Below are positions 24,985 through 57,574 of a DNA stretch of 64,000 bases, piece after piece (within the stretch, counting starts at the first letter, position 1; every line of letters begins with the position of its first letter). The DNA lies in assembly GCA_018664825.1 (NCBI GenBank), contig JABJNO010000024.1:7204-71203 (forward strand). The letters run 5' to 3'. The notes beneath the pieces are model-generated. The model did no database searches, was not told where the DNA came from, and was given only the letters and a program-made list of their open reading frames with translations. The DNA comes from Candidatus Parcubacteria bacterium (lineage in GTDB: Bacteria > Patescibacteriota > Patescibacteriia > UBA1558 > GWA2-36-10). A program made the position numbers and the translations under genes.

Positions 24985-24988
24985 ATTT

Positions 24989-25477: not shown

Positions 25478-25479
25478 AA

Positions 25480-26139: not shown

Positions 26140-26157
26140 GAAGTTATTATATACAAA

Positions 26158-28735: not shown

Positions 28736-28738
28736 AAA

Positions 28739-29980: not shown

Positions 29981-29983
29981 AAT

Positions 29984-30694: not shown

Positions 30695-30696
30695 GT

Positions 30697-32459: not shown

Positions 32460-32948
32460 TTATCTAATGACCTTGATTGCTGCAGTTTGATATTTATCAC
32501 AAGATCCTATGGTCACAACTCCGTTTGCATCTTTGAGAAAATAATAACCTGTGCTAGTACCTACGACTGAACTAGATTTTGGATCAAATGGAACAGAGCC
32601 TATATAGCCATTGGTTACTAACGGGTCTAGCCAAATTATAGCATTGGTAGTAGTGGCCCCACAAGCATAATCTGCGTCTGTACCAGCATAATTGGCAATC
32701 ATACAAGTTGTATTGGCTGTAATACAATCTGCAGATGTAGTCACAAATGTACCGCTATTGTCAGAGGCATAAGTAGACCAGGCATCAGCAATACTAGTAA
32801 TATCAGACCAACGTTGAGCATCATTTGCTTCTCCGAGACGTTTGGCTGGATTGATAGCTACAAAAGTAGCAGCTGCGAGTAACGCAATAATAGCTACTAC
32901 TATTATCAGCTCTACCAAAGTAAAGCCCTTGTTTTTTATCTTCTTCAT
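32460..32948 (-). CDS. type IV major pilin-like protein (tandem paralogue 3 of 3)
   Basis: KGFTLVELIIVVAIIALLAAATFVAINPAKRLGEANDAQRWSD prepilin N-terminus; conserved C-term GSCDKYQT. Confidence 0.8.
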   Translation of the reverse strand: MKKIKNKGFTLVELIIVVAIIALLAAATFVAINPAKRLGEANDAQRWSDITSIADAWSTYASDNSGTFVTTSADCITANTTCMIANYAGTDADYACGATTTNAIIWLDPLVTNGYIGSVPFDPKSSSVVGTSTGYYFLKDANGVVTIGSCDKYQTAAIKVIR

Positions 32949-32975
32949 ACTAATCTTTTTTTAAAATTTAATATA

Positions 32976-33470
32976 TTATCTAGTAATTTCGATAGTATTG
33001 GTTTGGTATTTAGCACAAGAGCCTACAACAACAGCTCCGTTGGCATCTTTATGAAAAAAATACCCAGTAGTAGTACCTGTACCCCCGCTTGATTGTGGAT
33101 CATAGGGAATATCACCAATATAACTACCCGCCACCAAAGGATCTAACCAAATTGTACCATTGGTAGTACTAGCACAAGCAGTATTAGCACTAGTAGTACT
33201 AGTTGCTCCATCAAGCGTAGAAATCATACAATTGATATTACCACTTATGCAGGGCGAACTAGTTGCATTTGAACCACCATTGTCAGCCACATAAGCAGCC
33301 CAAGCATCAGCAATAGCAGAAATATCAGACCAACGTTGAGCGTCATTTGCTTGTCCAATACGCTTGGCTGGATTAGTAGCTACAAAAGTAGCGGCTGCTA
33401 GTAATGCAATAATAGCTACTACTATAATCAGCTCCACCAAAGTAAAGCCCTTATTTTGTTTTTTCTTCAT
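32976..33470 (-). CDS. type IV major pilin-like protein (tandem paralogue 2 of 3)
   Basis: As above; variable central Cys-containing segment. Confidence 0.8.
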   Translation of the reverse strand: MKKKQNKGFTLVELIIVVAIIALLAAATFVATNPAKRIGQANDAQRWSDISAIADAWAAYVADNGGSNATSSPCISGNINCMISTLDGATSTTSANTACASTTNGTIWLDPLVAGSYIGDIPYDPQSSGGTGTTTGYFFHKDANGAVVVGSCAKYQTNTIEITR

Positions 33471-33495
33471 CCTAATTTATTTTAAATTAAATGTT

Positions 33496-33996
33496 TTATC
33501 GGACAACTTGAATATTAGCAGTTTGATATTTATCACAAGAGCCTACAGCGACAACCCCGTTGGCATCTTTATGAAAGTAATACCCGGTAGTAGTACCTGT
33601 ACCACCACTTGATTTTGGATCAAAAGGAATACTACCAATATAACCTCCGTCAACCAAAGGATCTAACCAGATTGTACCATTTGTAGTACTAGCACAAGCA
33701 GCATCTGCATTAGCAGTACTACTAGCGGTTCCAGTATAAGTACCTATCATGCAATTTATATTTCCAGTAATACAACCCACAGACGTAGTTGCATCTGTGC
33801 CACTGTTTTCAGCCAAATAAGTAACCCAAGCATCAGCAATAGCAGTAACATCAGACCAACGTTGAGCGTCATTTGCTTCTCCAAGACGCTTGGCTGGATT
33901 GATAGCTACAAAAGTAGCGGCTGCAAGTAACGCAATAATAGCTACTACTATTATCAGCTCTACCAAAGTAAAACCCTTATTTTGTATTTTGTTCAT
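33496..33996 (-). CDS. type IV major pilin-like protein (tandem paralogue 1 of 3)
   Basis: As above. Confidence 0.8.
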   Translation of the reverse strand: MNKIQNKGFTLVELIIVVAIIALLAAATFVAINPAKRLGEANDAQRWSDVTAIADAWVTYLAENSGTDATTSVGCITGNINCMIGTYTGTASSTANADAACASTTNGTIWLDPLVDGGYIGSIPFDPKSSGGTGTTTGYYFHKDANGVVAVGSCDKYQTANIQVVR

Positions 33997-34102
33997 AGTA
34001 ATTTTAGTTTAAATTAAAATATATTATATATAATAGCAATTTTTCGAAATTTTGCCAATCAAAGCTTTTTATATTATAGCACAAAATCTAAAAAAATAAT
34101 AT

Positions 34103-35896
34103 TTAGAGGCGTTTTAAATCCATATTAACCATAATATTATAAGTTTTATTATCTACATCATATTTTATTACTTCATATCCTTTTGTTAGCTCCCAATCTG
34201 ACAATGGGCCTATATTTTGAGCAGAAATAACCCCTGACAAGTACTCATCTACCTCCTGCTCATTTATTTTGAAAAAAGTAAACTCTGCATCTATAGTAAG
34301 AGGGTCGCCCAAGTTGTATTCATCTTCTGAGGGGGATATTTTTTTTATATCAGCCAAAACAGCTTTGGGTAAAATATAAAATCCCTCCTCTTGTGTAGAC
34401 TCTAGATCAAGGCTACCAAGGGTCCTGGTATCCAACAGGTCATAAATATCTTTTGTGATTTCCTGATATCCATATTCTACACCCCTACTTGTTATCACAT
34501 CACTCACCTTGTGCTCTTTTGCAGAAATAAAATTATCGACACCAGTCTCATTTGTCGTGGCTACAAAAATTTCTTTATCAAAAGAATAATTATCCAAAAC
34601 AACAACAATATCTTCCTGATCATCGATAACTGCATCTTTTTGACCAAGACCGGGTATAAAGCTCGAAATCTTATCTCGGAACATAAAACCAGCCCCTGCC
34701 AATAATAATATAGCTAAAATAATAATATACAAAGGTTTTATTTTGAGCTTCTTTTTTTCTTCTTCAACTATCTCCTCGCCATCTTCATTGACTGTTTTGA
34801 CTGGGACAATTGGCTCTTTAGAAACTTCTTCTTTTTTTTCTCTAGAAAATTTTTGATAAAAGTTGATGACTGATTTAGAGTACCCAAGTTTGGCCAATCC
34901 CAAAGCATTTACAAACTTGGTATTGGCTACTGGCTTTGGTAAAAAACTAGCATCAATAAAAGAATAGCCTACTATAGCCGGGATACTAAGATTGTCTCCA
35001 AAATATTTATCTATACCTTTCATCTGAGCCAAACCACCAATCAAGACTATTTGTTCTATTTTTTTATTGTAAGTAGTCTGAAAATAATTTATAAAATTTT
35101 TCAGCTCATCTGCCAGTGGCTGAAGCTGTCCTTGAATAATCAACATTATTTCCCCATCATTGGCACTAGCATCCAATCCTACACTTTGTTTTCTTTCATT
35201 GGCTACTGAACGAGGAATATCCATCTTTTGAGCCAAGGCATCATCAATGTCGTTCCCGGCAATATTTATATTTATAGAATCACGAATACCAGAATGATCA
35301 AAAACAGAAGCAATGGTTGTCCTTGATCCTATATCCAATAAAAGAGTCACTTTTTTCTCAAGAGAATCTGATAATCCCGCAAAAGAGCTAATCGCTTCAC
35401 TGGTAATGCCCTCTATCTCAAAATTCATAGAATCAAATACATCCACAAAACTGGCAATCACATCTTTTTCAGCAGCTGTAAAAAATATTTCTTTATTCTC
35501 TCCTTTGTCTCCTAGTATTCTCATGTCAGTAACTAGATTATCAAAAGCCTCTGGAATCATTTCTTCTGCTCGCCTTTTGGCAACCTCTTTGATATCTTTG
35601 TCTTTTACGCTTTTTGGTATCGTCAAAATCTTGGAAAATACTTTTGACTCAGGAATTGACAAAAATACCTTATAGTCCTCTGCTTTACTAATAGGCTTTG
35701 GTTGGGCACTAGAAAAAAGTTGCTTCAAAGCAACCTTGAATTTTTCTTTATCCAAAATTCTACCATCCTCTACAATATCTGGCACCAAATTTACACGAGA
35801 ATAGGCCTCTACTTTGTATCCTTTTCTTTCTTTATCCAAAACAACAGCTTCGATAGAAAAATCTGCAATATCTATTCCTATTATGTTTTTTGCCAT
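34103..35896 (-). CDS. pilM: type IV pilus assembly protein PilM fused to a TM helix and PilN/PilO-like extracytoplasmic domain
   Basis: IIGIDIADFSIEAVVL actin-like ATPase fold (~380 aa), then TM LYIIILAILLLAGAGFMF and ~200-aa C-terminal domain. Confidence 0.7.
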   Translation of the reverse strand: MAKNIIGIDIADFSIEAVVLDKERKGYKVEAYSRVNLVPDIVEDGRILDKEKFKVALKQLFSSAQPKPISKAEDYKVFLSIPESKVFSKILTIPKSVKDKDIKEVAKRRAEEMIPEAFDNLVTDMRILGDKGENKEIFFTAAEKDVIASFVDVFDSMNFEIEGITSEAISSFAGLSDSLEKKVTLLLDIGSRTTIASVFDHSGIRDSININIAGNDIDDALAQKMDIPRSVANERKQSVGLDASANDGEIMLIIQGQLQPLADELKNFINYFQTTYNKKIEQIVLIGGLAQMKGIDKYFGDNLSIPAIVGYSFIDASFLPKPVANTKFVNALGLAKLGYSKSVINFYQKFSREKKEEVSKEPIVPVKTVNEDGEEIVEEEKKKLKIKPLYIIILAILLLAGAGFMFRDKISSFIPGLGQKDAVIDDQEDIVVVLDNYSFDKEIFVATTNETGVDNFISAKEHKVSDVITSRGVEYGYQEITKDIYDLLDTRTLGSLDLESTQEEGFYILPKAVLADIKKISPSEDEYNLGDPLTIDAEFTFFKINEQEVDEYLSGVISAQNIGPLSDWELTKGYEVIKYDVDNKTYNIMVNMDLKRL

Positions 35897-35919
35897 AATT
35901 TATATTTTAAAATTTTTAT

Positions 35920-36789
35920 TTAAAGACAATACTTGGTACAAGCTGAACAATCTGTATTACAATAAGTAGAACATTCTGCCGTTGGAGACGTACGAGCTAT
36001 GCCTACTCCCCCACAAGAACCACCTGTATAATCACAACCTTCACCACCAACATAAGTAGCTGAACAGGTATTGTTGCAATAAGGGCCACCGGCTTGTCTA
36101 GTGCCATCTCCGCAAGATTCATTTACACCATTACCATCATCACAAGTCTCGTCTGCTACGATCGCCGTACAATCAGCATTGCAGGCATCTGTATCTGGAG
36201 TACCATCTCCACAATATTCAGTAACCTCATTGCCATCATCGCAAACTTCTGAGCCAGTAGTTGCTCCATCTCCACACACCTGACAAACCCCACAATCAGC
36301 ACTACAGTCACCACAAGCCTCAATACCATTGCAGGTGCCGTCGCCACACCAAATATAAGATTTGTAAGACGTCTTGGACTCATTGAAAGAATCAATACTT
36401 ATGGGTGAACTAGATACATTTATTTTGACGACTGCTGTTTTGGTCCAACTACCTAGATCTGATGTACTAGTTGCTGTCGAAGTGACCGTTTTGAATCCAG
36501 CAACAATATTGGTACTAATAGTAGAACTACAAGCAACATCACTAGTCAATAAATTAAAACTACCAGAAATAGCTGTACTAGATGCAATCCTCACCAACGC
36601 ATCATCAATGCAAGTACTTATATCTATCGCTGCCTCCTGGCCTTCACTGATATGATAGTTTGCTAGCTTGTCATTGGTGTTGAGCATAGCAACAATAATA
36701 CTAGACAATACTGTCAGAGTAGTGATCATAATCACCAAAATCAAAGCTATGGCTCCTTTATTTTTTTCTTTTTTAATTTTATTCTTCAT
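35920..36789 (-). CDS. membrane-anchored protein with Myxococcus-type cysteine-rich repeats (CGDGxxxxxExCDDGN)
   Basis: VCGDGATTGSEVCDDGNEV, YCGDGTPDTDACNADC, ETCDDGNGVNESCGDGT; N-terminal hydrophobic anchor without the canonical prepilin Glu. Confidence 0.6.
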   Translation of the reverse strand: MKNKIKKEKNKGAIALILVIMITTLTVLSSIIVAMLNTNDKLANYHISEGQEAAIDISTCIDDALVRIASSTAISGSFNLLTSDVACSSTISTNIVAGFKTVTSTATSTSDLGSWTKTAVVKINVSSSPISIDSFNESKTSYKSYIWCGDGTCNGIEACGDCSADCGVCQVCGDGATTGSEVCDDGNEVTEYCGDGTPDTDACNADCTAIVADETCDDGNGVNESCGDGTRQAGGPYCNNTCSATYVGGEGCDYTGGSCGGVGIARTSPTAECSTYCNTDCSACTKYCL

Positions 36790-36795
36790 ATATTT

Positions 36796-38130
36796 CTAAT
36801 AATCTCCTTGTGATTGTAAAGCTGAAATTTCCTCATCTGTTAAAGCTCTATTATAAAATCTCACTTCATCTATTATACCATCAAAGGTGCCCGAGGTGCC
36901 TGAATAGCTTAGATGAGGTTCATAGGTATCATTAACTAATATTGGAACCGTCCCATCATAGATAACGGACGAAATGGGCCCTGTATCTTTTTCATAAACA
37001 TATACCTGTAGTCTATTATTATTTAGGTCATAAACACAAGCTATATGATAAGTATTTCCTACTACAATAGATGAATCAGCCGAAGCGACCTCAACGTATG
37101 TTGTTCCATCGAAAACTTTGCAATTTGCAGCCTCAGTAGTGGAAAGTAACTCCATCACATAACCTCTCTGGTATGCCCACTGAGTTTTGCTCATAATTTT
37201 ATGTTGAACCGAACCGTTAAATGCTTCCGGCTTTACCCAGGCTGTGATAGTAAATTGATCACTAAAATTCAAATCATCGGGGTCAGTAGTAGATTCAGTA
37301 GCAGGATCATAAGTAATACAAGTTGAAGGATCGTCATCATATTCAAAATCCAGTGCATAAGTACTACCGTCCACTATACCCGCAGCCCAAGTAGGTGTGC
37401 TGCCAGGTGGATAACAACCAGCTGGATTATCACCAATACTATCAACCGTAGTTGTACCCGTGCCCTCTTCAAGTCTCCACCAAGTCACTAAACCGCTTGG
37501 TTTTTCACTATACACTACTACCGTACTAGATGCTGTAGAGGTAGCTGACAACATAGCCTGCCGATTATTTTGACTACTGACTGACAAGGTGGTGGTAATG
37601 TTTATATTGGAATTGGCGGTAGAGGTCGCAGTCGAGGTTGCAAATGTCAGACTAGTATCCAAAACTTCAACATCATCTGAACTAAGATAATACTTGTTCC
37701 CAACGGCAAATGTATCAACACTACAATTGTTATAATGTCCGTTGCCATTCATATTTGGATAACAAGCCATGACAATCCTCCTGTCACTCAGGGTGACTCT
37801 CACTCCGCCACCATTTTTTACGCAAGTACCAGGTAGGTAATCATCATTTTCAAAATACAAAGCCAAAGCCTGAGGAGAAGCACCAAAGGTTGAACAATCT
37901 CCACTTGTATCTTTTAGCATGCCATCTGCATTTTTTACCAAATAATCAATAGCATTGAGTGCTATACGACGGTTACGCGAAGTTTCAACTCCGGCGCCTA
38001 CTTTGACTGCAGTATTTCCTAAAGTGAGGTTGAAACTCACAACAGCAGTAAGTAAAATACCAACAATAGCCAAATATACTATGGCTTCTACTAAAGTAAA
38101 TCCTTTTTTGTTTTTTGTTTTTTGTTTCAT
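36796..38130 (-). CDS. prepilin-type N-terminal domain protein with C-terminal LamG-like (concanavalin-type) jelly-roll domain
   Basis: KGFTLVEAIVYLAIVGILL; FDGIIDEVRFYNRALTDEEISAL LamG signature. Confidence 0.7.
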   Translation of the reverse strand: MKQKTKNKKGFTLVEAIVYLAIVGILLTAVVSFNLTLGNTAVKVGAGVETSRNRRIALNAIDYLVKNADGMLKDTSGDCSTFGASPQALALYFENDDYLPGTCVKNGGGVRVTLSDRRIVMACYPNMNGNGHYNNCSVDTFAVGNKYYLSSDDVEVLDTSLTFATSTATSTANSNINITTTLSVSSQNNRQAMLSATSTASSTVVVYSEKPSGLVTWWRLEEGTGTTTVDSIGDNPAGCYPPGSTPTWAAGIVDGSTYALDFEYDDDPSTCITYDPATESTTDPDDLNFSDQFTITAWVKPEAFNGSVQHKIMSKTQWAYQRGYVMELLSTTEAANCKVFDGTTYVEVASADSSIVVGNTYHIACVYDLNNNRLQVYVYEKDTGPISSVIYDGTVPILVNDTYEPHLSYSGTSGTFDGIIDEVRFYNRALTDEEISALQSQGDY

Positions 38131-41100
38131 TATCTATAGTTAAATCTCGCTCCATACAAAGTGGGAGTATTTGCATTGCTACTACAAGCAGTCAATGCAG
38201 CCTTGTATCTCAAATATCTTTTGCCATTCATAGTGGCGTCTGTACTACTAGTATAATATCCTGCACTAGCATCACTATAAACTTCGCTAGTGACTCCTGT
38301 TGCAAAAGTAACATCATCACTTACCTCAGCTGTAATCTGCAAATCACAACCAGCTGGTACGTTTTGTTCGACGGTCAGACTTTTTATTTCTTTATCTGTT
38401 GAGCCCAAGTCCAAAATAGACGAGTACAAACTACCAGGAGTATTGTACCCCATTTGTGTTTCTGCTCCTATAGTATAAAAAGTAGTAGTTGAATTTATAT
38501 TGTTGTATCCAGTGGTCATCCAATCTGTACTTTTGACATCAGAAGATATTCTTACTTCATCTATCTCTCCATGAAAAAAATAAGCTTTACTTGACCAATC
38601 TTTACCAATATTTACATCATAAACATTACCAATATCATAAGCCGTGGTGTCATCACACGGAGAAGCAGTACAGCCACTTTTGATAACTGTATTTATATAA
38701 GCTTGATAACCTACATCTCTATCTACGGTTGTAGCGATATAAGTCCAGACATCATCTGTAATAGCCGCCGTATCAACATACATACCTCCTAAATTTGTCA
38801 CATTATTATGACCCATATGAAAATATAATTTCTTGGTAGATAAATAGGTCCTAAACAACCAGGCATCGGCATCATTCACATCTCCATTGCCAAACCATAA
38901 CGTAGATGAGTACGTCTGATCTTGTGCTGAATCTGGTTTCATCCAAAACTCTACTGTAAAATCATCTGTGCCCTGAGCTTTGTCACTATTATTTTCTACA
39001 GTAAGATAATCATAATCACCATCAAAGTATTGAGCCCGTCCTACCCTGCCGCTTGACTCGCTAGGAGAATCAATATCATATTTGAACCAACCATTACTAC
39101 TATTGACGCTAGAGCCGACTCCACCTATACCCGAATCTGTCATGTGGGTGACCATTTTATAATTACTACTCCATACTTCATCTATATGTTCCGTGGTACT
39201 AGTGACGTTTGAATTCCCATAAAACATATAAATATCTGTATCAGCTGCCAAAGAATCTACTTTTACCCAGGCTACATATTCACCGGTAGTACTAGCATAA
39301 TATTCTATCTCATGATCTAGTACCAGGGTACCATCCGAATCTGAAGTAAATATTACGTCATAGCCATATTCATTGTATACGTTTCCTCCATTACCAGTAG
39401 TTTTAAAATAATCATTTGTTTCAGATATCACTACCGGAAAGTCAACATGCGCCCCACCTGAGACATTACCATTTTCTCCCAAGGTAATAGTCCTTTTATA
39501 ATCAAAAGTACCGCCAGTTGGATTGGTCCTAGTTTTGCCTATAAAATAAAGTGTCGTAGTGTTGGTCGTACCATCATGACCACCAACAAAAAATCCACGT
39601 GAAGTAGTACTATAAATAGACTGATCAAAGGTAGTATAATTTGATTTTCTACCAAAACCAGGATTACTCAAAACACCGTCTGCTGGGCTAGCCCTGTTGG
39701 TGATATCAATAGCATAAATCCCCCCTGGATTATAATAATGTATAAAAGCCATATCTTCATCAACATCTGGTATGACCTCGGCATAACCTTGACTAGTACC
39801 TACATTATAAGAGCCTATCTCTGATAAAGAGGTACCCTGATCTTCTACAATAATAAACTCTTCAGTTGAGCCTTCATTGCCCAAAACAAATCTATTTTTT
39901 CCTGAAGATTGTTCCAAAAATTCCATGTCCGTGATATCAGAAACATAAGTAGCATGGACATAAGCATTGGTACTTGTTGAGCTAAACCAACGATTATCAT
40001 TGATGCCCATTTTTTTGAACTCGCCCAAATAATCATCGCCCACTATATAAATATATGGCTCGGCTCCTGATTCATCCAAATAAACTTTGTTGATAGCATA
40101 ACCACTACCTGAGCCAGCACTTATCAGCTGAGCGGCATTGGTAACTGTCAAAGTGGCTCCTCCCCCAGTAATTTCAAAAGCATAGCCATAGCCATAACTA
40201 TCAAACATATACAAAGCATCGCCCGCTGCATTGACTACCATGTCCATAGCATAATATGTACCACCCGGATAGGTAATATCATAGCAAGTAGCCCCACTAC
40301 CAGAAATAGCCGTCAAGACAGTCAGGTCAACTACGCAGACGTTGTCTGTACCATCAGCTGGTAGTCTTTTGTTAATATACGCATAGTCACCATCAGGATG
40401 AAAGGCTACATTTTGAGTATGCCACGGCACTGCTCTTTTCCACTCTGGCCTAAAAATGCCTGCTGCTGCTCTAGATATATCATATTTTATAAAATCAAAA
40501 TTGGTAGTCCCAATAAGATAAAGACTCCTACCATCTGCCCCTAATTCATAATTATAAAAATCTTCCCAGGCTTTGTAGGCAGCCCTAGAATCTGGTATCA
40601 AATCAGCCCAGTCAGCCCAGCTTGTTTCTGAGCCTGCTAACTGAGAAAGAGCCAACTCACCAACCGTAGTGGTACTGATGTTGCTATATGATGAAGAAGC
40701 CATGGTCAGGTCTGACCAAAACTCTCTATCTCCTACCCCTGACCAATCTGATTGCTCCCAAGTTTTGTATGACCAATTGGTCACATAAGTAGTAAGTACA
40801 TAATTATCTATCCCTGTACCAGATACTGTGACGACTACTTTTTTTGTGTTTGGATCTTCGGTGCCAGAATCAGTTATATCCCAACTGGCATCTCTTTGAG
40901 CATTGGTAATAGTCACGATTCTAGTCAAATCACCAGAGGTATCCGATGTACCACTAAACTCCCAATAGCCACTAACATTTTTGGCCAGTCCTTTGGCACC
41001 ATCACCAGAAACTGTTTCTATAGTTTGCCAACTATTGTTACGGATAGCCCTGACAATCTCTATACCCTCATCTGCAAACTCTGTGACTGTCTGTCTATCA

Positions 41101-41231: not shown

Positions 41232-41232
41232 T

Positions 41233-42321: not shown

Positions 42322-42332
42322 TTCAAAAATTA

Positions 42333-43562
42333 TTATCTTCCAACACCACTGGTCAATCCATAAATAGGATTGATGATAGCCATTGCCACAAAACCTACGA
42401 TCAATCCAATGAATATCAATAAAGCTGGCTCCAAGGCAGTTGATAAATTTTTGGTGGAGTGATCAACTTCTGATTCATAAAAATCTGACAGATAACTCAA
42501 TGACTCACCAAGTTTTCCAGAATTTTCACCTACCTGAGTCATACTACGGACAATACTTGGAAAATAATATTCTTTGGATAGACAGTCTGACAAGGCTGTG
42601 CCTTTTAGAACTTTGTGATATATGATGTCAATCTCTCTCCTATAAACATCACTAGTAACGGTTTCGGATACAATATGAAGAGACTTATCAATAGTAATTC
42701 CACTATCAAGTAAAGATCCTAAAGTACGGCAAAAAAGAGCAAGATTCATATTGCGTACAATTTTTCCAGTTATGGGTAGCTTCAAAAATACTGTGTGCAG
42801 CACAAGTCTACTTTGCCTTATTGCCAACAGGGCTCTAAACAAAATTACCAAGCCAATAATACCCAATAATACCCAGCGCCAATTGTCTCCCATAAAACTA
42901 GCAACAACTATAAATACCTTTGTAGTCATCGGCAATTCTACGCTTAGGGTTGTGAAAAAATTTACAATCTTTGGCAAGACAACAGCCGAGATGACTATCA
43001 TCAAACCAACAACAGCAACAATAACCAAGGTAGGATAGACTGAGGCAGATTTTATTTTTGATTTCAACTCATAACTTTTTCTTTGCTGGATTGATAACAA
43101 CTGAAGATTTTTTGCCAAGTTACCCCCTTTTTCTCCGACGGCAACCATATTTACAAACAAACGATCAAAATCTTTTTTGTGTTTTGCCAAAGAATCAGAT
43201 AAGGTATGCCCTTTACGAACATCTACCAAAATTTGATTTAGCTTCTTTGACATCAAGGGTGAACCACTGTCTGCCAAAACCTTGAGAGCCTTATCAATAG
43301 ATAACCCTGCCTGGATCATCACCGATAGATGTTTGGCAAACATTACTTTTTCCAAAAGTTTTAACTTGCCAAAAACAAGTCCTCCTTTTTTCTTCTTTCC
43401 TTTTGATTTATATTTATCTTCACTACCAGCCACTGGTTCCAAAGATACGATAATGCCCTCTTTGGAGGCGAGCTTGTTTCTAGCACCATTAATAGAAGAG
43501 GCCTCTATGGTTCCTTTTAATGTTTTTCCACTGGTGTTTGAAATTTTATAAGAATACAACAT
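42333..43562 (-). CDS. pilC: type IV pilus platform protein PilC (GspF family)
   Basis: Two GspF repeats with three TM segments. Confidence 0.85.
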   Translation of the reverse strand: MLYSYKISNTSGKTLKGTIEASSINGARNKLASKEGIIVSLEPVAGSEDKYKSKGKKKKGGLVFGKLKLLEKVMFAKHLSVMIQAGLSIDKALKVLADSGSPLMSKKLNQILVDVRKGHTLSDSLAKHKKDFDRLFVNMVAVGEKGGNLAKNLQLLSIQQRKSYELKSKIKSASVYPTLVIVAVVGLMIVISAVVLPKIVNFFTTLSVELPMTTKVFIVVASFMGDNWRWVLLGIIGLVILFRALLAIRQSRLVLHTVFLKLPITGKIVRNMNLALFCRTLGSLLDSGITIDKSLHIVSETVTSDVYRREIDIIYHKVLKGTALSDCLSKEYYFPSIVRSMTQVGENSGKLGESLSYLSDFYESEVDHSTKNLSTALEPALLIFIGLIVGFVAMAIINPIYGLTSGVGR

Positions 43563-43568
43563 ATATAA

Positions 43569-45257
43569 TTATTGTTTAGTTACTCTAAATATTTCTTCTA
43601 GGGTAGTCTTACCTGATATGGCTTTTTTAAAACCATCCTCAAACATAGTAGTCATACCTTGTTCCATGGCTTTTTTACGGATAGTATCCGCATCGGCCCG
43701 ACTTAATATAAGATTTTTTATTTCTTCATCTATCTGTAACACTTCAAAGATACCTATACGTCCAGCATAACCACTGTTGTTGCAGTTTTCACATCCTTTA
43801 CCTTTATAAAAACGGATATCTTTTATTTCTTGAGTGTCCAAAAATTTGCTAATATCTATCTCACTTTTTAGATCTTCGACTTCTTTTTCATCAAGAGTAT
43901 AACTGACAATACATTTCATACAAATTCTCCTGATCAAACGCTGAGCAACCACAACATTGACCGTGGAGGCTACCAAAAATGGCTCAACATTCATATCAAA
44001 TAAACGTGGTAAAGCAGTAGAAGCATCATTGGTATGCAGGGTGGTCAAAACAAGATGTCCGGTCATCGCAGAGTTGATAGAAATAGCCGCTGTTTCCTCA
44101 TCTCGAATCTCACCTACCATGATGATGTCCGGATCTTGACGAAGAAGAGAGCGTAATCCAGAGGCAAAGGTAAGGTTGGTATTTGCATTTACTTGAATCT
44201 GATTGACGCCAGTCAAATCATACTCTACTGGATCTTCGATAGTACATATATTTACATTTCTGCTATTCAAAATTTTGATGACTGCATAAAGAGTAGTCGT
44301 CTTACCAGAACCCGTAGGACCGGTCACCAATATCATGCCATATGGTCTTTTGGCAGCTTTGCTAATTATCCCAAAATCACGACCATTCATACCTAGACCC
44401 TCAAGGTCAAACTGTTTACCTTTTGATGACAAAAGACGCATTACTATCTTTTCACCTTGTGTAATAGGAATTGATGAAACTCTAATGTCCAACTTCTCGC
44501 CTTCTACGGTAGTTACAATTTTACCATCCTGAGCAGAGCGAATTTCGTCGGTACGTAGCTGGGCCAAAATTTTTATCCTAGCAACTATAATATTCAAAAT
44601 ATTTTTTGGTAGTTTCAAAACATCATACAAAATACCATCTATCCTAAAGCGAACTATGATTTCTTTATCGGCTGGCTCAATATGAATATCAGAAGCATGA
44701 TTGGTGTATGCATAGCTAAACAAATCATCCACTAGGCTGACCACCGAAATATCCTCAGCAGCTGACCCCTGAGCTTTGATAGCGTGTTTTTGGATACTGC
44801 TTGCATACTCCTGTTGGATTGTCTTACGATAAAGACTAAAGCTATTGTCAATACTAAACTGCGTAGCATAATAAGGGTTTACTTTATCTCCAACTTTTTT
44901 TTCAACCATCTTGATCATGGCATAGTCAAAAGGATTGGTCATGGCTATTTTTACCCCTTCTTCATCTCTACCAAAAACAATCATTTTCTGTTTTCTAGCA
45001 ACTACTTCCGGAATCAAGCCTAAGATTTCTGATTTTATTTTTTGTTTTGCCAAATTTACAAAACGAATATGTAATTGGTTGGCTATCAGCTGACCAATTT
45101 CTTCTGCCTTTATCAGATTTTGCTTTATCAAAAAAGTAGCAAAATCTTTTTTTCTTTCTTTTGCGGTCTTCAAGGCAGTATCCAAAATACTAGTTTCGAT
45201 CAAACCTATCTTGGAAATAATTTGATAAATTTTTTCATCAGAAATTATTTTGTTCAT
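43569..45257 (-). CDS. pilB: type IV pilus assembly ATPase PilB (GspE family)
   Basis: N-terminal GspII_E_N domain, Walker A GPTGSGKTT, Asp box, tetra-Cys CMKC..CENC. Confidence 0.95.
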   Translation of the reverse strand: MNKIISDEKIYQIISKIGLIETSILDTALKTAKERKKDFATFLIKQNLIKAEEIGQLIANQLHIRFVNLAKQKIKSEILGLIPEVVARKQKMIVFGRDEEGVKIAMTNPFDYAMIKMVEKKVGDKVNPYYATQFSIDNSFSLYRKTIQQEYASSIQKHAIKAQGSAAEDISVVSLVDDLFSYAYTNHASDIHIEPADKEIIVRFRIDGILYDVLKLPKNILNIIVARIKILAQLRTDEIRSAQDGKIVTTVEGEKLDIRVSSIPITQGEKIVMRLLSSKGKQFDLEGLGMNGRDFGIISKAAKRPYGMILVTGPTGSGKTTTLYAVIKILNSRNVNICTIEDPVEYDLTGVNQIQVNANTNLTFASGLRSLLRQDPDIIMVGEIRDEETAAISINSAMTGHLVLTTLHTNDASTALPRLFDMNVEPFLVASTVNVVVAQRLIRRICMKCIVSYTLDEKEVEDLKSEIDISKFLDTQEIKDIRFYKGKGCENCNNSGYAGRIGIFEVLQIDEEIKNLILSRADADTIRKKAMEQGMTTMFEDGFKKAISGKTTLEEIFRVTKQ

Positions 45258-45262
45258 AGTAT

Positions 45263-45709
45263 TTATTGTGGTTTATTTTGTTTTTCTTCGGCACCCCCAT
45301 TGCCATTTGTTTTTGCCTCTTTACTTTGGCTCTTGGAATGTAAATATTGATTTACTTTGTCCATAATAGCGGTCAGAGTAATATCGTCCTTGATCAGATA
45401 ATCCACTGCTCCCAAATCCAATCCTTTTTTGACATCATCTTCTTGTCCTAGGTTGGATAAAATGATTACAGGAATATTTTTGGTTTTTTCGTCTTCCTGT
45501 AATTCCATCAAAACTTCAAAACCATTTTTCTTGGGCATAATCATATCCAAGATAATTAAATCTGGATCATTGGTCCTGGCTTTTTCCAGGCCTTCCTCGC
45601 CATCAACAGCCAAAATAACATCATAACCTCTATCTCCCAATTCTGACTGATAAACTTTCCTTAAAAAATTATCATCATCTACAAATAAAATTTTTACATT
45701 GTCTGCCAT
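45263..45709 (-). CDS. cheY: CheY-like single-domain response regulator (PilG/PilH-like)
   Basis: ILFVDDD...LIILDMIMPKKNGFEVL...IPVIILS..K receiver-domain residues. Confidence 0.85.
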   Translation of the reverse strand: MADNVKILFVDDDNFLRKVYQSELGDRGYDVILAVDGEEGLEKARTNDPDLIILDMIMPKKNGFEVLMELQEDEKTKNIPVIILSNLGQEDDVKKGLDLGAVDYLIKDDITLTAIMDKVNQYLHSKSQSKEAKTNGNGGAEEKQNKPQ

Positions 45710-45713
45710 AGCT

Positions 45714-47270
45714 TTAAATTATGTTGTTTATATCAATTACTAACACCGGCCCACCATCTTCCGATACAGCCACTCCTTTTATATAATCCTTATCTTTCAA
45801 AATTGTTGGCATTTTTTTATTTACCAATTCTTGCTCTGTGATTTTCCCAAACAAAGGCAAAGCCACCCTGCCTTCTTTTGTTTTTAATAACAAAACATAC
45901 TTATACAAAGCGTCAAATCTTGGCATTGCCAAAGTTTCAAAAAGATAAATCAATTTATATTTTTTTCTATTGTCTACAAAAAACTTACTTTTCTTGAAAT
46001 CTTTTACTTCTTCTAGCTTTACAATTTTTTCTACAATAGACAGGGGCACTGCTAAAGCATGCTCCTTGAAGCTAAACACTATGCTCCTAAAAATAGATAA
46101 GGGTAATGGAAGGGTAATGGTAAAAGAAGTCCCTTTTTTGGAAACACTATCTACTTCAACACTTCCTTTTAGCTCTGCTACCTTGTCTTTGACGAGACTC
46201 AATCCCACACCACGACCAGAACTAATACTAACACTCTTTCCACTAGAAATACCTGGACTAAAAATCAAACCCTTAACTTCTTTTACTGTAAGTTTTTTGG
46301 CTTTTGCCTTGCTTATGATTCTATGTTTCACGGCTTGATCCATTATCTTTTGCCAATCTATACCTTGGCCATTGTCCTGAACTATTACTTTCATCATCTC
46401 GCCATCAAGTCTAGCTTCTAGATTTATGCGGCCATTTTTTTGATCCTTGCTTATTCCATGGGCAACTGCATTTTTCAAAAGCTGAATCAATATTTCAATC
46501 AACTCATCAAGAATAGATTTATCAAGAGCCAAGTCATTGTCTTCTATAATCAATTCTGCTTCTTTACCTTCGTTTTTGGCTATTTCTCTAACCAAAAATG
46601 GTAACGAAGAAAATATCTGAGCCAGAGGAACAATCCTCAATTTTTCAAATTCACGACGAAGATTATTGACCACCTCATCCATACGCATACAATTGGAAAG
46701 CATTTTGCTATTGCCATGTTTTTTGATGACACTCTTATTTTCCATAGTACTAATCATCAGATCATCCAATAAATATTGGATTACATTGAGCTTGTGGATA
46801 GACACTGATATCTCAGCTACCGTTGGTAGGCTACCCAAAATATGTTTTTCTCTTTTGACTATTACTTTTTTACCGTCTTTATTTTTGGTATTTTTTTTCT
46901 TAACAATATTTTTAAAAATTGTTGTTTGTTGTTGTAAATTTATTTCTTTACTTGTTTTTTGAATAGTTTGAATATTTTGTTTAAATTTTTCCAAAGAACC
47001 AATCAAAATATCCATGACTTCTTCGTCTATTATCAAACTTTGGTTGTAAGCAGAATCAATAATATTTTCCATAGCATGAAAAGCATGCACTGTTTTTTTG
47101 TAACCCATAGTAGCAGCTGCGCCTTTCATAGAATGTATCAATCTAAAAATATTTTCTATCAAATTTTGGCTTTTGGTATTTTTTTCCAAAGCAAGCAACA
47201 AGTCGGCCATTTTTTTTAGCTGACTTTTGTAAGTAGATAAATATAGATCTTTGTATTTGTTGTTAATCAT
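45714..47270 (-). CDS. cheA: CheA-type histidine kinase (Hpt - dimerisation - HATPase_c - CheW-like)
   Basis: HSMKGAAATMG Hpt His box; N/G1/G2 boxes NAVAHGI, DNGQGID, SGRGVGLSLV; C-terminal CheW-like domain. Confidence 0.85.
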   Translation of the reverse strand: MINNKYKDLYLSTYKSQLKKMADLLLALEKNTKSQNLIENIFRLIHSMKGAAATMGYKKTVHAFHAMENIIDSAYNQSLIIDEEVMDILIGSLEKFKQNIQTIQKTSKEINLQQQTTIFKNIVKKKNTKNKDGKKVIVKREKHILGSLPTVAEISVSIHKLNVIQYLLDDLMISTMENKSVIKKHGNSKMLSNCMRMDEVVNNLRREFEKLRIVPLAQIFSSLPFLVREIAKNEGKEAELIIEDNDLALDKSILDELIEILIQLLKNAVAHGISKDQKNGRINLEARLDGEMMKVIVQDNGQGIDWQKIMDQAVKHRIISKAKAKKLTVKEVKGLIFSPGISSGKSVSISSGRGVGLSLVKDKVAELKGSVEVDSVSKKGTSFTITLPLPLSIFRSIVFSFKEHALAVPLSIVEKIVKLEEVKDFKKSKFFVDNRKKYKLIYLFETLAMPRFDALYKYVLLLKTKEGRVALPLFGKITEQELVNKKMPTILKDKDYIKGVAVSEDGGPVLVIDINNII

Positions 47271-47679
47271 AAATCTTTAAGTCTTCCATGATTTTATCTG
47301 TCTCTAAAATATAAACTTTTTGTTTGTTTATTTTTATATACTTTTTAAATTGTTTTTTGTTGCGGTCAGTAAAAACCTGATTGACCTTTATGGTTTCTCC
47401 ACCCTGATCAACAATCAAACCATAAAAATCTTTGCTAAAACTAAAGAGTAGACAGTTGTGTTCATCTGGAAGATTATATTTTATATCCAAAAATTTAGCT
47501 GTGTTCAAAACAGTGATAATATTGCCTCCGTGATATATCAAACCAGTTATTCGATTGTCGACATCTGGTAAAATTGCAACTTTATCACAACTAATAAATT
47601 GACTATCACCCAAAAGAGGCATGGCAAATTTCTCATCATTTATGTAAAACAAAATAAATTTTTGCTGTTTTTTTACCAT
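47263..47679 (-). CDS. cheW: CheW-like coupling protein
   Basis: 138-aa CheW domain; 8-nt overlap with cheA. Confidence 0.7.
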   Translation of the reverse strand: MVKKQQKFILFYINDEKFAMPLLGDSQFISCDKVAILPDVDNRITGLIYHGGNIITVLNTAKFLDIKYNLPDEHNCLLFSFSKDFYGLIVDQGGETIKVNQVFTDRNKKQFKKYIKINKQKVYILETDKIMEDLKIYD

Positions 47680-48821
47680 TATTGTTTACCTACCAAATTA
47701 TTTAAAGTGCTAGTCGCCCTGTTGAGCGAGGTTGATGACTTGTTCAATGACTTATTCACCACTAATTGCTTGAATATAATCTGAGCTATATCATCTGTTT
47801 GCTTGACTAGGGATTTTGATTCTTTATTTAGGTTGCCGATCATAGTTTTGATGTTATCAGATTCTTGGTGAGTTTTTTCAGTTGACTTGTTTATATCGTT
47901 GATACTTTGAGAAATAATACCAATACCGCCTGCTATTTTGCTCAAAAACTTTATTGTCTGACTAACAACTTTGATGCTCTTATTGGTCTCTTCCCATTCT
48001 GATTGAGATGATTCTTTGACTTGTTCTATCTGTCTCTGCATATCCCCAACCAACGATTGGATGCTAGCAGCTGCTTGCTCACTAGTAGCATTTAGTTCTC
48101 TTATTTGTGAAACAATGCCTGCGAAACTATCTCCTGAAGATGATTGATTGGCCCGAATAGATGCATTGAGACTCAAAAATTTGGCCGTGTCTGCCAATAC
48201 AGCCACTCTTTCGGCAATATTTTTTACTTTTTTGGTATAAGCATCCAGAGCTTGTGATAATTTTTGATTTTCTGTAACAAGATTTTTGACTGACACCAGA
48301 CTATCGAGAGCTAGCTTTGATTTACTTTCACTCTGACTAGCCAATTTATCAATATCACTAGCATGCTTGGCTGAACTTTGAGTCTTGCCAACAATCTGAT
48401 TCAGTGATTTGACCATACCTGCCACTGCAACGCTTCCTGATTTGAGCCCTAGTTGCTGTTGTTTACTACTAGAAATCAAAAATTCGGAAATTTCACTATT
48501 GTTTTCACTAATGTCTGATAAGTTCTCAATAGATTTTGATAAATTTTCTACAACTTTTGATAAATCAAGAACTGCTTCTTGGATAGGTTCTGTTATAAGA
48601 CGTGATAATCTACGCGTAGCGATCAAAGATAGGATAAAAACAAAGGCCAGGGACGCAAAAACGGCTATCAATACTGCCCTCACTACTTCCTGATCTTCCA
48701 ATAAATTGACTTGCGGCGAAAATATATAGATCAAAATAAACAATATAGCTAAAGGTAGTAAAGATACCAAAATAAACCAAGAAATAAACTTGAGATAGAT
48801 TTTTGTTTCTACGACTTTCAC
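47679..48821 (-). CDS. methyl-accepting chemotaxis protein-like transducer (two TM helices with minimal loop plus MCP signalling domain)
   Basis: Highly conserved hairpin-tip region ...QTSLLALNASIEAARAG-like (LSLNASIRANQSS); heptad coiled-coil; no periplasmic sensor domain. Confidence 0.8.
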   Translation of the reverse strand: MKVVETKIYLKFISWFILVSLLPLAILFILIYIFSPQVNLLEDQEVVRAVLIAVFASLAFVFILSLIATRRLSRLITEPIQEAVLDLSKVVENLSKSIENLSDISENNSEISEFLISSSKQQQLGLKSGSVAVAGMVKSLNQIVGKTQSSAKHASDIDKLASQSESKSKLALDSLVSVKNLVTENQKLSQALDAYTKKVKNIAERVAVLADTAKFLSLNASIRANQSSSGDSFAGIVSQIRELNATSEQAAASIQSLVGDMQRQIEQVKESSQSEWEETNKSIKVVSQTIKFLSKIAGGIGIISQSINDINKSTEKTHQESDNIKTMIGNLNKESKSLVKQTDDIAQIIFKQLVVNKSLNKSSTSLNRATSTLNNLVGKQ

Positions 48822-49037
48822 TTATGTGTATTTTTTATTTTTTTATTTTTGTTTTTCCAGAAATCTGGACTAAATTATTTGTAAATTATAACATATTTCG
48901 GGGTTTAGAACAAAGGAAATTTTGCACTTTTTTTTCTCTTTTAGCATTTTTTTTACAAAACTACCCAAAAAGATACTCAAAACATTTAGTAGTAAAAAAT
49001 TAGTCTATTTTTTTAGCTAAGGTTAGATAAAAAAACT

Positions 49038-50458: not shown

Positions 50459-50463
50459 AGTCT

Positions 50464-54973: not shown

Positions 54974-54977
54974 AATT

Positions 54978-56744: not shown

Positions 56745-56758
56745 AATATTATTTTATA

Positions 56759-57571: not shown

Positions 57572-57574
57572 ATA

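What the first reader, a model, noticed from the sequence alone, without database searches (positions are those of the whole stretch)
32460..48821. Chemosensory module (MCP-CheW-CheA-CheY) hard-wired in one array with the type IV pilus motor and pilins
Seen in sequence: a 16 kb uninterrupted minus-strand array runs MCP (47679-48821), CheW, CheA, CheY-like REC, PilB, PilC, four decorated prepilin-type proteins, a PilM-PilN fusion and three tandem major pilins. Junctions are 1-8 nt overlaps or gaps of a few nt (47679 shared; 47263-47270 overlap; 38130 shared), so the genes are probably translationally coupled. The MCP has two TM helices only ~15 residues apart, so it has no periplasmic ligand-binding domain. 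No CheB/CheR, flagellar or motor genes lie in the window. Established knowledge: Pil-Chp (Pseudomonas), Frz/Dif (Myxococcus) and Tax (Synechocystis) systems use the same four signalling parts to control pilus extension and retraction. Inference: in an organism that otherwise looks like a reduced, pilus-dependent (possibly episymbiotic) lineage, this is a minimal chemosensory circuit dedicated to the pilus, and apparently without methylation-based adaptation.
Basis: partly seen in the sequence, partly recalled or inferred. Interest (0 to 1): 0.8.

Follow-up and report, generated by a model that had tools for sequence, protein, structure and literature searches.

The report
Chemosensory module built into pilus operon
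[quoted passage not shown] This points to an undescribed, minimal way for these bacteria to control their pili.

Summary
On the minus strand, 48821 to 32460, fourteen genes run without a break: MCP, CheW, CheA, a single-domain receiver (REC), PilB, PilC, four minor-pilin-like proteins, a PilM fusion and three paralogous pilins. Junctions range from an 8-nt overlap to a 27-nt gap, apart from 106 nt before the pilins. A strong terminator follows the last pilin.

The organism is a Candidatus Parcubacteria bacterium (exact protein matches). The same gene order recurs in all 30 related species representatives examined, at 38-57% CheA identity. It also recurs in a sister lineage whose CheA is only 27% identical.

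The receptor is a transmembrane hairpin with a 9-residue outer loop, no HAMP domain and a 44-heptad-long bundle. It has no conserved methylation motif. CheA is P1-P3-P4-P5 with no P2 and with its catalytic motifs intact. REC keeps all CheY switch residues and is as conserved as PilB.

No CheB, CheR, CheC or CheD occurs in 690 kb of window plus related loci. Whole genomes could not be searched.

The CheA lineage is monophyletic (100% NJ bootstrap). It fails the defining features of the Tfp and ACF classes. Its nearest neighbours are compact CheAs from CheB/CheC/CheD operons.

Verdict: a new, apparently undescribed variant of chemosensory control of pili. The input signal and the output target are inferred, not shown.

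The parts
48885..48892 (-). Extended -10 promoter-like element (TGtTATAAT), about 64 nt upstream of the MCP start, in the 269-bp divergent intergenic region
   Evidence: Read directly from the sequence. Consensus match only, not tested.
47679..48821 (-). MCP, 380 aa. TM hairpin with a 9-residue outer loop, no HAMP, one continuous helix into a roughly 44-heptad signalling bundle. Divergent tip: LSLNASIRANQSSSGDSFAGIVSQIRELN.
   Evidence: PF00015, 5e-15. AF2 model pLDDT 79: H2-34, H44-226, H232-377. Best PDB hit is Tm1143, a 44H receptor. The GTG start is supported by a conserved N-terminus in 26 orthologues.
47263..47679 (-). CheW, 138 aa. Shares 1 nt with the MCP stop.
   Evidence: PF01584, 1e-10. 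PDB hits to T. maritima CheW.
45714..47270 (-). CheA, 518 aa: P1(Hpt, His46)-P3-P4-P5, no P2. Overlaps CheW by 8 nt.
   Evidence: Pfam Hpt + HATPase_c + CheW. Aligns to T. maritima CheA P3-P5 over residues 154-518 and P1 over 5-128. H46 and the N, G1 and G2 boxes are invariant in 20 orthologues.
45263..45709 (-). Single-domain receiver (CheY-like), 148 aa, with a low-complexity tail. 4 nt after CheA and 5 nt before PilB.
   Evidence: PF00072, 2e-24. D12, D13, D55, S85, Y104 and K107 are conserved. 62-79% identity across species.
43569..45257 (-). PilB extension ATPase, 562 aa, with an N-terminal MshEN-type domain, Walker A and a tetracysteine motif
   Evidence: T2SSE 3e-128 and MshEN 5e-10. 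TIGR02538 PilB 6e-157. Motifs.
42333..43562 (-). PilC platform protein, 409 aa
   Evidence: T2SSF, 2e-61. NCBIfam PilC/GspF.
41233..42321 (-). Minor-pilin-like protein with a Fib_succ_major domain, 362 aa
   Evidence: N_methyl + PF09603. N-terminus DGFNLIEILV.
38130..41231 (-). Giant minor-pilin-like protein, 1033 aa (DUF2341, lectin-like)
   Evidence: N_methyl + DUF2341. N-terminus KGFSVIELII.
36796..38130 (-). Minor-pilin-like protein with a LamG domain, 444 aa
   Evidence: N_methyl + Laminin_G_3.
35920..36789 (-). PilX/GspK-like minor pilin lacking Glu5, 289 aa
   Evidence: N-terminal TM segment 10-38, sequence KGAIALILV, no Pfam hit. Conserved in position in related loci.
34103..35896 (-). 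PilM fused to a TM segment (383-410) and a roughly 190-aa extracytoplasmic domain. PilN-like by topology only.
   Evidence: PilM_2, 1e-27. TIGR01175. TM. No PDB hit and no usable model for the C-terminal part.
34030..34058 (-). Internal promoter-like site (TTGGCA-17-TATTAT with TG) in the 106-nt gap before the pilins
   Evidence: Consensus match only.
33496..33996 (-). Pilin paralogue 1, 166 aa
   Evidence: N_methyl. KGFTLVELI motif. 75% identical to paralogues 2 and 3.
32976..33470 (-). Pilin paralogue 2, 164 aa
32460..32948 (-). Pilin paralogue 3, 162 aa
32413..32445 (-). Intrinsic terminator-like hairpin (13 pairs plus a T-run) that ends the array

Best explanation
This is a lineage-specific, minimal chemosensory pathway (MCP-CheW-CheA-REC), very probably co-transcribed with the type IV pilus genes and dedicated to controlling them.

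Proposed mechanism (inferred):
1. The sensor-less hairpin receptor forms a core signalling complex with CheW and the P2-less CheA.
2. CheA autophosphorylates on His46 and passes the phosphoryl group to Asp55 of the single-domain receiver.
3. The phosphorylated receiver acts directly on the pilus motor, most likely on PilB, whose gene follows after 5 nt. This switches pilus extension on or off.
4. No phosphatase and no methylation enzymes accompany the module. It would therefore act as a simple switch or threshold device reset by receiver autodephosphorylation, not as an adapting gradient sensor.
5. The receptor in this clade has no outer domain and no HAMP. Its input is probably read within the membrane or cytoplasm: the state of the pilus machine, the membrane pilin pool, envelope stress, or contact.

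Shown here: gene content, intact catalytic and phospho-acceptor residues, receptor architecture, operon-like structure, and deep conservation of the linkage.

Inferred: phosphotransfer, the target (PilB), the nature of the stimulus, and the lack of adaptation.
For: - Domains confirmed.
- Tight junctions with no terminator-like site at any of them; the one strong terminator follows the last pilin.
- Same order MCP-CheW-CheA-REC-PilB-PilC-minor pilins-PilM-pilins in every sufficiently long locus of 30 GTDB species representatives and 4 further contigs.
- Median gaps over 28-31 species: +1, -8, +2, +9, +4 nt.
- A sister lineage with CheA only 27-28% identical keeps the same order. The two lineages together are monophyletic in 100/100 NJ bootstraps.
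- REC is 62-79% identical across species, the same range as PilB (68-77%). MCP, CheW and CheA range from 30 to 64%, consistent with a constrained REC-motor interface.
- His46, the N, G1 and G2 boxes of CheA, and D12, D13, D55, S85, Y104 and K107 of REC are conserved.
- The MCP family is a single isolated orthologue group of constant length, 379-387 aa.
- The AF2 model shows a TM hairpin, no HAMP and a 308-residue bundle.
- No CheB/CheR/CheC/CheD in 690 kb of window plus 36 related loci, with positive controls working.
- The strict methylation consensus is present in at most 4 of 29 orthologues at any position.
Against: - No expression or biochemical data exist; co-transcription and phosphotransfer are inferred.
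- Whole genomes were not searchable, so CheB/CheR, a phosphatase, PilT, other MCPs or even flagellar genes could lie elsewhere.
- REC has no output domain in this genome, and its target is guessed from gene adjacency and conservation only.
- A relaxed methylation-like motif (SSxQQQ, residue 121) occurs in 16 of 29 orthologues.
- In one relative (L089) the MCP has a roughly 250-aa outer domain. The sensor-less state is therefore not universal, and the input may differ between lineages.
- PilT and PilD are not in the window, so it is unknown whether this pilus retracts.
Confidence: 0.68

Rival explanations
1. The module is a conventional adapting chemotaxis-like system. Its CheB, CheR and possibly a phosphatase are simply encoded elsewhere in the genome, so it is not 'minimal'.
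For: - Only 64 kb of this genome and +/-10 kb of relatives were inspected.
- A relaxed EQ-pair motif at residue 121 occurs in 16/29 MCP orthologues.
- A KEGG-level survey reported 'moderate coverage' of the chemotaxis pathway in OD1 bins (PMC5383146).
Against: - In the nearest non-CPR relatives, CheB, CheC/X and CheD lie beside CheA. Here none lies within 10 kb in any of 36 loci.
- The strict methylation consensus is not conserved, and there is no C-terminal tethering pentapeptide.
- These genomes are about 0.7-1 Mb (contig sizes).
Confidence: 0.2
2. The Che module regulates a pilus-dependent process other than movement: DNA uptake, or adhesion to and contact with a host cell. It would gate when pili are made rather than steer motility.
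For: - The minor pilins carry large lectin- or adhesin-like domains: Fib_succ_major, LamG, DUF2341.
- No PilT is present in the window.
- In cultured Saccharibacteria, T4P mediate host binding as well as twitching (PMC11623550; PMC9894109).
- Without adaptation enzymes the module suits a switch better than gradient tracking.
Against: This is a variant of the main explanation (same wiring, different physiological output). Nothing in the sequence separates the two. PilT may be encoded elsewhere.
Confidence: 0.35
3. The che genes are neighbours of the pilus genes by descent only and control something unrelated, for example another REC target or gene expression.
For: REC is a generic single-domain receiver with no recognisable pilus-specific feature. 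Deep-branching relatives add a C-terminal zinc ribbon that could bind another partner or nucleic acid.
Against: - The linkage persists with gaps of a few nt or overlaps across lineages whose CheA has diverged to 27% identity.
- A reduced variant (L038) lost MCP, CheW and CheA P3/P5 but kept Hpt-kinase-REC immediately before PilB.
- REC is as conserved as PilB.
Confidence: 0.07
4. The module is a decaying relic with no function.
For: The receptor tip is highly divergent from the canonical EAARAGExGRGFAVVAxEVRxLA. Pfam scores are modest. The L038 variant shows that loss can occur.
Against: All catalytic and phospho-acceptor residues are invariant across 20-33 orthologues. Protein lengths are constant. 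No frameshifts or stops were seen in 30 species.
Confidence: 0.03

Closest known systems
Pil-Chp system of Pseudomonas aeruginosa and the cyanobacterial Tax/Pix systems (Tfp class of chemosensory systems)
   Same: A chemotaxis-type MCP/CheW/CheA/CheY set whose output is the type IV pilus. In cyanobacteria the CheY-like regulators act on the PilB motor (bioRxiv 10.1101/2021.06.11.447907, listed).
   Different: - Tfp class is defined by gene order YYWMRABW, a CheA with 5-6 Hpt domains and a fused receiver, and 40H receptors, usually with CheB/CheR (PMC9321776 S1 Table).
- Here the order is M-W-A-Y, CheA has a single Hpt and no fused REC, and the receptor is 44H-length without sensor or HAMP.
- No CheB/CheR lies nearby.
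- The che genes sit inside the pilB-pilC-pilin operon rather than at a separate locus.
Frz (ACF class) and Dif systems of Myxococcus xanthus
   Same: Che-like pathways that govern pilus-dependent surface behaviour. The Frz receptor FrzCD also lacks a periplasmic sensing domain.
   Different: - ACF class has CheA-REC hybrids, CheR-TPR and 40H receptors.
- Frz acts on polarity proteins, not from within a pilus operon.
- FrzCD is cytoplasmic, whereas this receptor is a membrane hairpin.
F1-class chemotaxis systems (Thermotoga, Bacillus, archaea), including the archaeal che system that controls the archaellum, a type IV filament machine
   Same: - The receptor has 44H length.
- The best NCBIfam CheA model is the haloarchaeal CheA (265 bits, against 150 for E. 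coli).
- The nearest CheA neighbours lie in CheB-CheA-CheC/X-CheD operons.
- In archaea a CheY likewise targets a type IV filament motor.
   Different: - F1 systems carry CheC, CheD, CheB and CheR, and usually a P2 domain. None of these is present here.
- The output is a bacterial PilB/PilC pilus rather than a flagellum or archaellum.
- The CheA lineage is separated from all others by a large score gap (383 to 251 bits).
Type IV pili of cultured Patescibacteria (Nanosynbacter lyticus TM7x)
   Same: A monoderm-type T4P locus with PilB, PilC, PilM and multiple poorly conserved pilins, used for host binding and twitching (PMC11623550).
   Different: No sensory or Che component is described for the TM7x pili: the paper contains no mention of chemotaxis, CheY or response regulator. 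The present clade is Parcubacteria and is uncultured.

Membership tests
Core chemosensory pathway (MCP-CheW-CheA-CheY) | Receptor with an MCP signalling domain forming a helical hairpin | tested here: met
   PF00015 at 56 bits, above the 34.6 cutoff. AF2 hairpin H44-226/H232-377. PDB hits to Tm1143 and Tsr.
Core chemosensory pathway (MCP-CheW-CheA-CheY) | CheA with Hpt (phospho-His), dimerisation, HATPase and CheW-like domains | tested here: met
   Pfam Hpt, HATPase_c and CheW. P3-P5 align to T. maritima CheA. H46 and the N/G1/G2 boxes are invariant. The Pfam P3 model itself did not hit. P2 is absent.
Core chemosensory pathway (MCP-CheW-CheA-CheY) | Separate CheW coupling protein | tested here: met
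   PF01584 at 41.9 bits, above the 23.5 cutoff. PDB CheW hits.
Core chemosensory pathway (MCP-CheW-CheA-CheY) | Single-domain receiver with CheY phospho-acceptor and switch residues | tested here: met
   PF00072. D12, D13, D55, S85, Y104 and K107 are conserved in 33 orthologues. The best PDB hit is annotated CheY (6azr), but generic receivers score equally well.
Core chemosensory pathway (MCP-CheW-CheA-CheY) | Phosphotransfer from CheA to REC | not testable with these tools
   Needs biochemistry.
Tfp class (Pil-Chp / Tax) | CheA with multiple (5-6) Hpt domains and a C-terminal receiver | tested here: not met
   518 aa, one Hpt, no REC. Definition from PMC9321776 S1 Table.
Tfp class (Pil-Chp / Tax) | 40H receptor | tested here: not met
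   The cytoplasmic bundle spans residues ~70-377, i.e. 308 residues or 44 heptads. The best structural relative is the 44H Tm1143.
Tfp class (Pil-Chp / Tax) | Gene order YYWMRABW with CheR and CheB | tested here: not met
   The order is M-W-A-Y. No CheB or CheR lies within the window or +/-10 kb in 36 loci.
Tfp class (Pil-Chp / Tax) | CheA groups phylogenetically with Tfp-class CheAs | tested here: inconclusive
   In the NJ tree the clade does not sit among the long multi-Hpt CheAs; its neighbours are compact CheAs. No curated class-labelled reference set was available.
ACF class (Frz, Wsp, etc.) | CheA-REC hybrid, CheR-TPR and 40H receptor | tested here: not met
   None of the three is present. 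Definition.
F1 class | 44H receptors | tested here: met
   Length and model. 44H is also cognate to F9, so this is not diagnostic.
F1 class | Auxiliary CheC and CheD, plus CheB/CheR | tested here: not met
   tblastn with CheB, CheR, CheC and CheD queries gave no hit at E<=0.5 in 690 kb, and positive controls worked. Genome-wide absence was not tested.
F1 class | CheA phylogenetic affiliation | tested here: inconclusive
   The nearest neighbours (P0119, P0093, P0410, P0317) lie in CheB-CheA-CheC/X-CheD operons. The clade is a long separate branch: 383 to 251 bits.
Type IVa-like pilus machinery (monoderm/CPR type) | PilB-type extension ATPase and PilC platform | tested here: met
   TIGR02538 6e-157, T2SSE 3e-128, T2SSF 2e-61.
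Type IVa-like pilus machinery (monoderm/CPR type) | Prepilins with G|F(T/S/N)L(V/I)E class III signal | tested here: met
   Six of seven pilin-like genes carry it. The 289-aa protein lacks E5.
Type IVa-like pilus machinery (monoderm/CPR type) | PilM with PilN/PilO alignment partners | tested here: inconclusive
   The PilM domain is met. The C-terminal TM plus 190-aa part has no detectable PilN/PilO homology, and the model was unusable.
Type IVa-like pilus machinery (monoderm/CPR type) | Prepilin peptidase PilD and retraction ATPase PilT | tested here: not met
   Neither is in the 64-kb window. They may be encoded elsewhere.

The most novel reading that the evidence does not exclude
These genes define a previously unclassified chemosensory class, restricted to Patescibacteria, that evolved its link to type IV pili independently of the Tfp class. 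In it a receptor with no sensor domain and no HAMP reads the state of the pilus machine itself: the membrane pilin pool, load on the filament, or contact with a host cell. A CheY-like receiver then feeds that signal straight back onto PilB. This would be a closed-loop, non-adapting contact or mechano-sensor that lets ultra-small episymbionts decide when to extend pili. The invariant cytoplasmic N-terminal peptide of the receptor (K2, E5-Y9) would be the docking site for a pilus-machine component.
Probability: 0.2. Interest if true: 0.85.

Novelty: new variant of a known kind. Interest (0 to 1): 0.62.

Why it matters
Patescibacteria make up a large share of bacterial diversity. All cultivated members live attached to other microbes, and type IV pili are their main tool for host contact and movement. 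How those pili are controlled is unknown: the most detailed pilus study in a cultured member mentions no sensory input.

A conserved, minimal Che module wired into the pilus operon suggests that some of these reduced bacteria make behavioural decisions with four signalling proteins. It has three uses:
- It is a natural minimal chemosensory system: one receptor, no sensor domain, no HAMP, no P2, and apparently no adaptation or phosphatase. That makes it suitable for reconstitution.
- It extends the classification of chemosensory systems.
- It gives a concrete handle, the REC-PilB pair, for asking how CheY-like proteins control type IV filament motors.

Tried and rejected
1. Whole-genome test for cheB/cheR, flagella or other MCPs. 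No tool returns whole genomes. Only the window and +/-10 kb of 36 related loci could be scanned.

2. Class assignment using hits from the genome-contig scan. Most non-CPR 'relatives' (Neisseria, Cellvibrio, Moraxellaceae, Myxococcota; L040-L085) were ordinary sensor kinases of about 700 aa that end at the HATPase domain and were picked up by the short peptide patterns. They were discarded.

3. Heptad class from the HMMER alignment to Tm1143. Scattered small gaps in the N-arm made it unreliable. The AF2 helix boundaries were used instead.

4. PilN identity of the PilM fusion:
- No Pfam PilN hit.
- A profile search of PDB found nothing at E<=10.
- The single-sequence model had pLDDT 43 and was unusable.

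5. A Biopython NJ bootstrap timed out. It was replaced by a numpy NJ.

6. Literature. Six searches combined Patescibacteria, CPR or Parcubacteria with chemotaxis, CheA, CheY, CheW, MCP or pili terms, plus one on Parcubacteria, chemotaxis and twitching. None found a description of this operon. The only relevant item is a KEGG-level remark (PMC5383146).

7. A canonical MshEN c-di-GMP motif in PilB was not found by regex and was not pursued.

8. Rejected idea: that CheW and CheA P5 are recent duplicates. They show no significant similarity.

Full report
**1. What is there**

ORF listing and Pfam/NCBIfam scans confirm an uninterrupted minus-strand array from 48821 to 32460:
- MCP, 380 aa.
- CheW, 138 aa.
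- CheA, 518 aa.
- A single-domain receiver (REC), 148 aa.
- PilB, 562 aa.
- PilC, 409 aa.
- Four minor-pilin-like proteins of 362, 1033, 444 and 289 aa. The first three carry prepilin signals plus Fib_succ_major, DUF2341 or LamG domains. The fourth has a pilin-like N-terminus without Glu5.
- A 597-aa PilM fusion.
- Three paralogous pilins, 64-75% identical to one another.

Junctions are -1, -8, +4, +5, +6, +11, +1, -1, +6, +23, +106, +25 and +27 nt. The consensus scan places no terminator-like site at any junction. It lists a few weak stem-loop matches inside coding sequences on the minus strand. The only strong hairpin (13 pairs plus a T-run, 32445-32413) lies just after the last pilin. A promoter-like site sits in the 106-nt gap before the pilins. 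An extended -10 (TGtTATAAT) lies about 64 nt upstream of the MCP start.

Downstream is a separate HlyD/MacB-type ABC operon. Upstream, divergently, is a polysaccharide-synthesis cluster of more than 14 kb. Scanning every ORF of at least 110 aa in the window found no CheB, CheR, CheC, CheD, CheZ, flagellar, PilT or PilD gene.

**2. Whose genome**

CheA, MCP and REC have exact matches annotated Candidatus Parcubacteria bacterium (P0001, P0121, P0197). All close homologues are from Patescibacteria: Parcubacteria, Komeilibacteria and Nomurabacteria.

**3. Anatomy of the parts**

*CheA.* It aligns to Thermotoga maritima CheA P3-P4-P5 over residues 154-518 and to P1 over 5-128, so P2 is missing. His46 and the N, G1 and G2 boxes are invariant in 20 orthologues.

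*MCP.* An AlphaFold model built on 27 orthologues (pLDDT 79) gives:
- TM1 at 2-34 and a 9-residue loop.
- A single unbroken helix 44-226 (TM2 running straight into the N-arm, with no HAMP break).
- A tip at 227-231.
- A return helix 232-377.

The cytoplasmic part is about 308 residues, or 44 heptads. The best solved relative is the 44H receptor Tm1143. The tip is highly divergent from the canonical motif.

The strict methylation consensus occurs in at most 4 of 29 orthologues at any position, and a relaxed form in 16 of 29 at residue 121. There is no C-terminal pentapeptide. The cytoplasmic N-terminal peptide (K2, E5, T6, K7, I8, Y9) is invariant and unexplained.

*REC.* It keeps D12, D13, D55, S85, Y104 and K107. 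It scores no better against CheY models than against generic receivers.

**4. Comparative evidence**

Four long contigs and 30 GTDB species representatives carry the same order wherever the contig is long enough. The order even includes the divergent sugar-transferase neighbour.

| Protein | Identity to the window |
|---|---|
| REC | 62-79% |
| PilB | 68-77% |
| PilC | 45-62% |
| MCP | 37-64% |
| CheA | 38-57% |
| CheW | 30-53% |

Median intergenic gaps over 28-31 species are +1, -8, +2, +9 and +4 nt for the first five junctions. The 8-nt CheW/CheA overlap is identical in 22 of 31.

The MCP family is an isolated orthologue group: 75 clusters at 49% identity or more, and then nothing better than E~1e-3.

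Two more distant loci keep the order MCP-CheW-CheA-REC(+zinc ribbon)-PilB(-PilC). These are L088, a Komeilibacteria MAG, and L089. Their identities to the window are CheA 27-28%, REC 57-58% and PilB 55%. In L089 the MCP has a roughly 250-aa outer domain.

One locus (L038) is a reduced form. It has no MCP and no CheW, and its CheA is cut down to Hpt+HATPase, yet it is still followed by REC-PilB-PilC.

**5. Which class**

An exhaustive phmmer search of 1.84 billion representatives shows six clade representatives at 383-576 bits. There is then a gap to 251 and 233 bits, followed by a continuum of all kinds of CheA.

In an NJ tree of the P3-P5 core (160 sequences, 100 bootstraps):
- The window clade is recovered in 89%.
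- The L088/L089 clade is recovered in 100%.
- The two together are recovered in 100%.
- Their nearest neighbours are compact, P2-less CheAs.

The gene contexts of those neighbours, where looked up, are CheB-CheA-CheC/X-CheD operons with 4HB_MCP receptors. Long multi-Hpt CheAs lie elsewhere in the tree.

The published class definitions (PMC9321776 S1 Table) are:
- Tfp: YYWMRABW, Hpt[5-6]:CheA-REC, 40H.
- ACF: CheA:REC, CheR:TPR, 40H.
- F1: auxiliary CheC/CheD, 44H.

This system fails the Tfp and ACF definitions on every tested feature. It shares only receptor length and weak CheA affinity with F1. It is best described as its own lineage, probably derived from an F1-like ancestor by loss of P2, CheB/R and CheC/D and by fusion to a pilus operon. 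That derivation is inference.

**6. Adaptation enzymes**

tblastn queries were taken from the non-CPR operons: CheB catalytic domains, CheR, CheC and CheD. They found nothing at E<=0.5 in 690 kb (the window plus 36 CPR loci), while they readily cross-detected each other between phyla. This supports the absence of local adaptation genes. Genome-wide absence could not be tested.

**7. Mechanism**

The best-supported reading is a dedicated phosphorelay from a membrane hairpin receptor through CheW/CheA to a CheY-like receiver that acts on the pilus motor, most likely PilB. Three points support the link to the pilus:
- The operon structure.
- Its persistence across deep divergence.
- REC being as constrained as PilB while the upstream signalling proteins evolve faster.

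The stimulus is unknown. With no outer domain and no HAMP, a membrane- or machine-derived signal is plausible for this clade. The L089 receptor suggests that related lineages sense something outside the cell. Whether the output is steering of twitching, gating of adhesion and host contact, or DNA uptake cannot be told from sequence. The lectin-like minor pilins and the lack of a nearby PilT lean towards adhesion or contact.

**8. Novelty**

Chemosensory control of type IV pili is a known kind of system. This architecture, lineage and operon fusion are not described in the searchable literature. Eight searches were run in total, seven of them aimed directly at this question. The only trace is a KEGG-level remark that OD1 bins have partial chemotaxis and twitching pathways (PMC5383146). 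The detailed pilus study of TM7x does not mention any Che or response-regulator component.

I rate it a new variant of a known kind, of moderate-to-high interest.

Noticed in passing
L038:6362-9704 (uncultured bacterium LaPlata-7m-a bin-459): A natural reduced variant of the cluster. It has no MCP and no CheW, and its CheA is cut down to Hpt+HATPase (311 aa, no P3/P5). It is still followed directly by REC (with a C-terminal zinc ribbon), PilB and PilC.
   Followed up: partly
L089:4133-6037 and L088:61-1272: A sister lineage with CheA only 27-28% identical keeps the same che-pil order. The L089 MCP is 634 aa, with a roughly 250-aa extracytoplasmic domain (no Pfam hit) between its two TM helices. 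The L088 MCP has a roughly 22-aa loop. The sensor-less receptor is therefore only one state of a wider family.
   Followed up: partly
REC orthologues in L005, L031-L035, L038, L088, L089: Deep-branching members carry a C-terminal CPxCG...CPxCG zinc ribbon on the receiver. The window's clade has only a short low-complexity tail with a conserved SKxAK motif.
   Followed up: partly
window 49091-64000: A surface-polysaccharide/glycosylation cluster of more than 14 kb: Bac_transf, epimerases, UDP-glucose dehydrogenase, flippase, glycosyltransferases, methyltransferases and a B12-radical SAM enzyme. Its first gene (49091-50458, +) is divergent from the MCP, and that neighbourhood is conserved at 59-70% identity in nearly all related species. 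A link to pilin or envelope glycosylation is possible.
   Followed up: partly
window 47679-48821 (MCP residues 1-16): The short cytoplasmic N-terminal peptide before TM1 (K2, E5, T6, K7, I8, Y9, F12, F16) is invariant across 27 orthologues, while the outer loop is variable. It may be a docking peptide. This is unexplained.
   Followed up: no
window 19005-19652 (-): An additional orphan prepilin-like gene (215 aa, N_methyl motif) lies 13 kb from the cluster. It is only about 22% identical to the three tandem pilins.
   Followed up: no
window 7774-7876 (-) and 6708-7715 (-): A SAM (S-box) riboswitch lies upstream of the S-adenosylmethionine synthetase gene.
   Followed up: no
window 27500-32355 (-): An HlyD-like periplasmic adaptor, a MacB-type ABC ATPase and two FtsX/MacB permeases form a separate operon immediately downstream of the pilins. 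It has its own promoter-like site (32408-32380) after the terminator.
   Followed up: no
window 21212-26184 (-): A heat-shock cluster (hrcA, grpE, hsp20, dnaK, dnaJ), with tRNA-Trp and tRNA-Thr at 20472-20833.
   Followed up: no
loci L014, L017, L020, L021, L023, L024, L027, L028, L031, L033: Several species representatives that carry this Patescibacteria-type cluster are titled 'uncultured Gammaproteobacteria bacterium' in their records. These are probably mislabelled MAG submissions.
   Followed up: no
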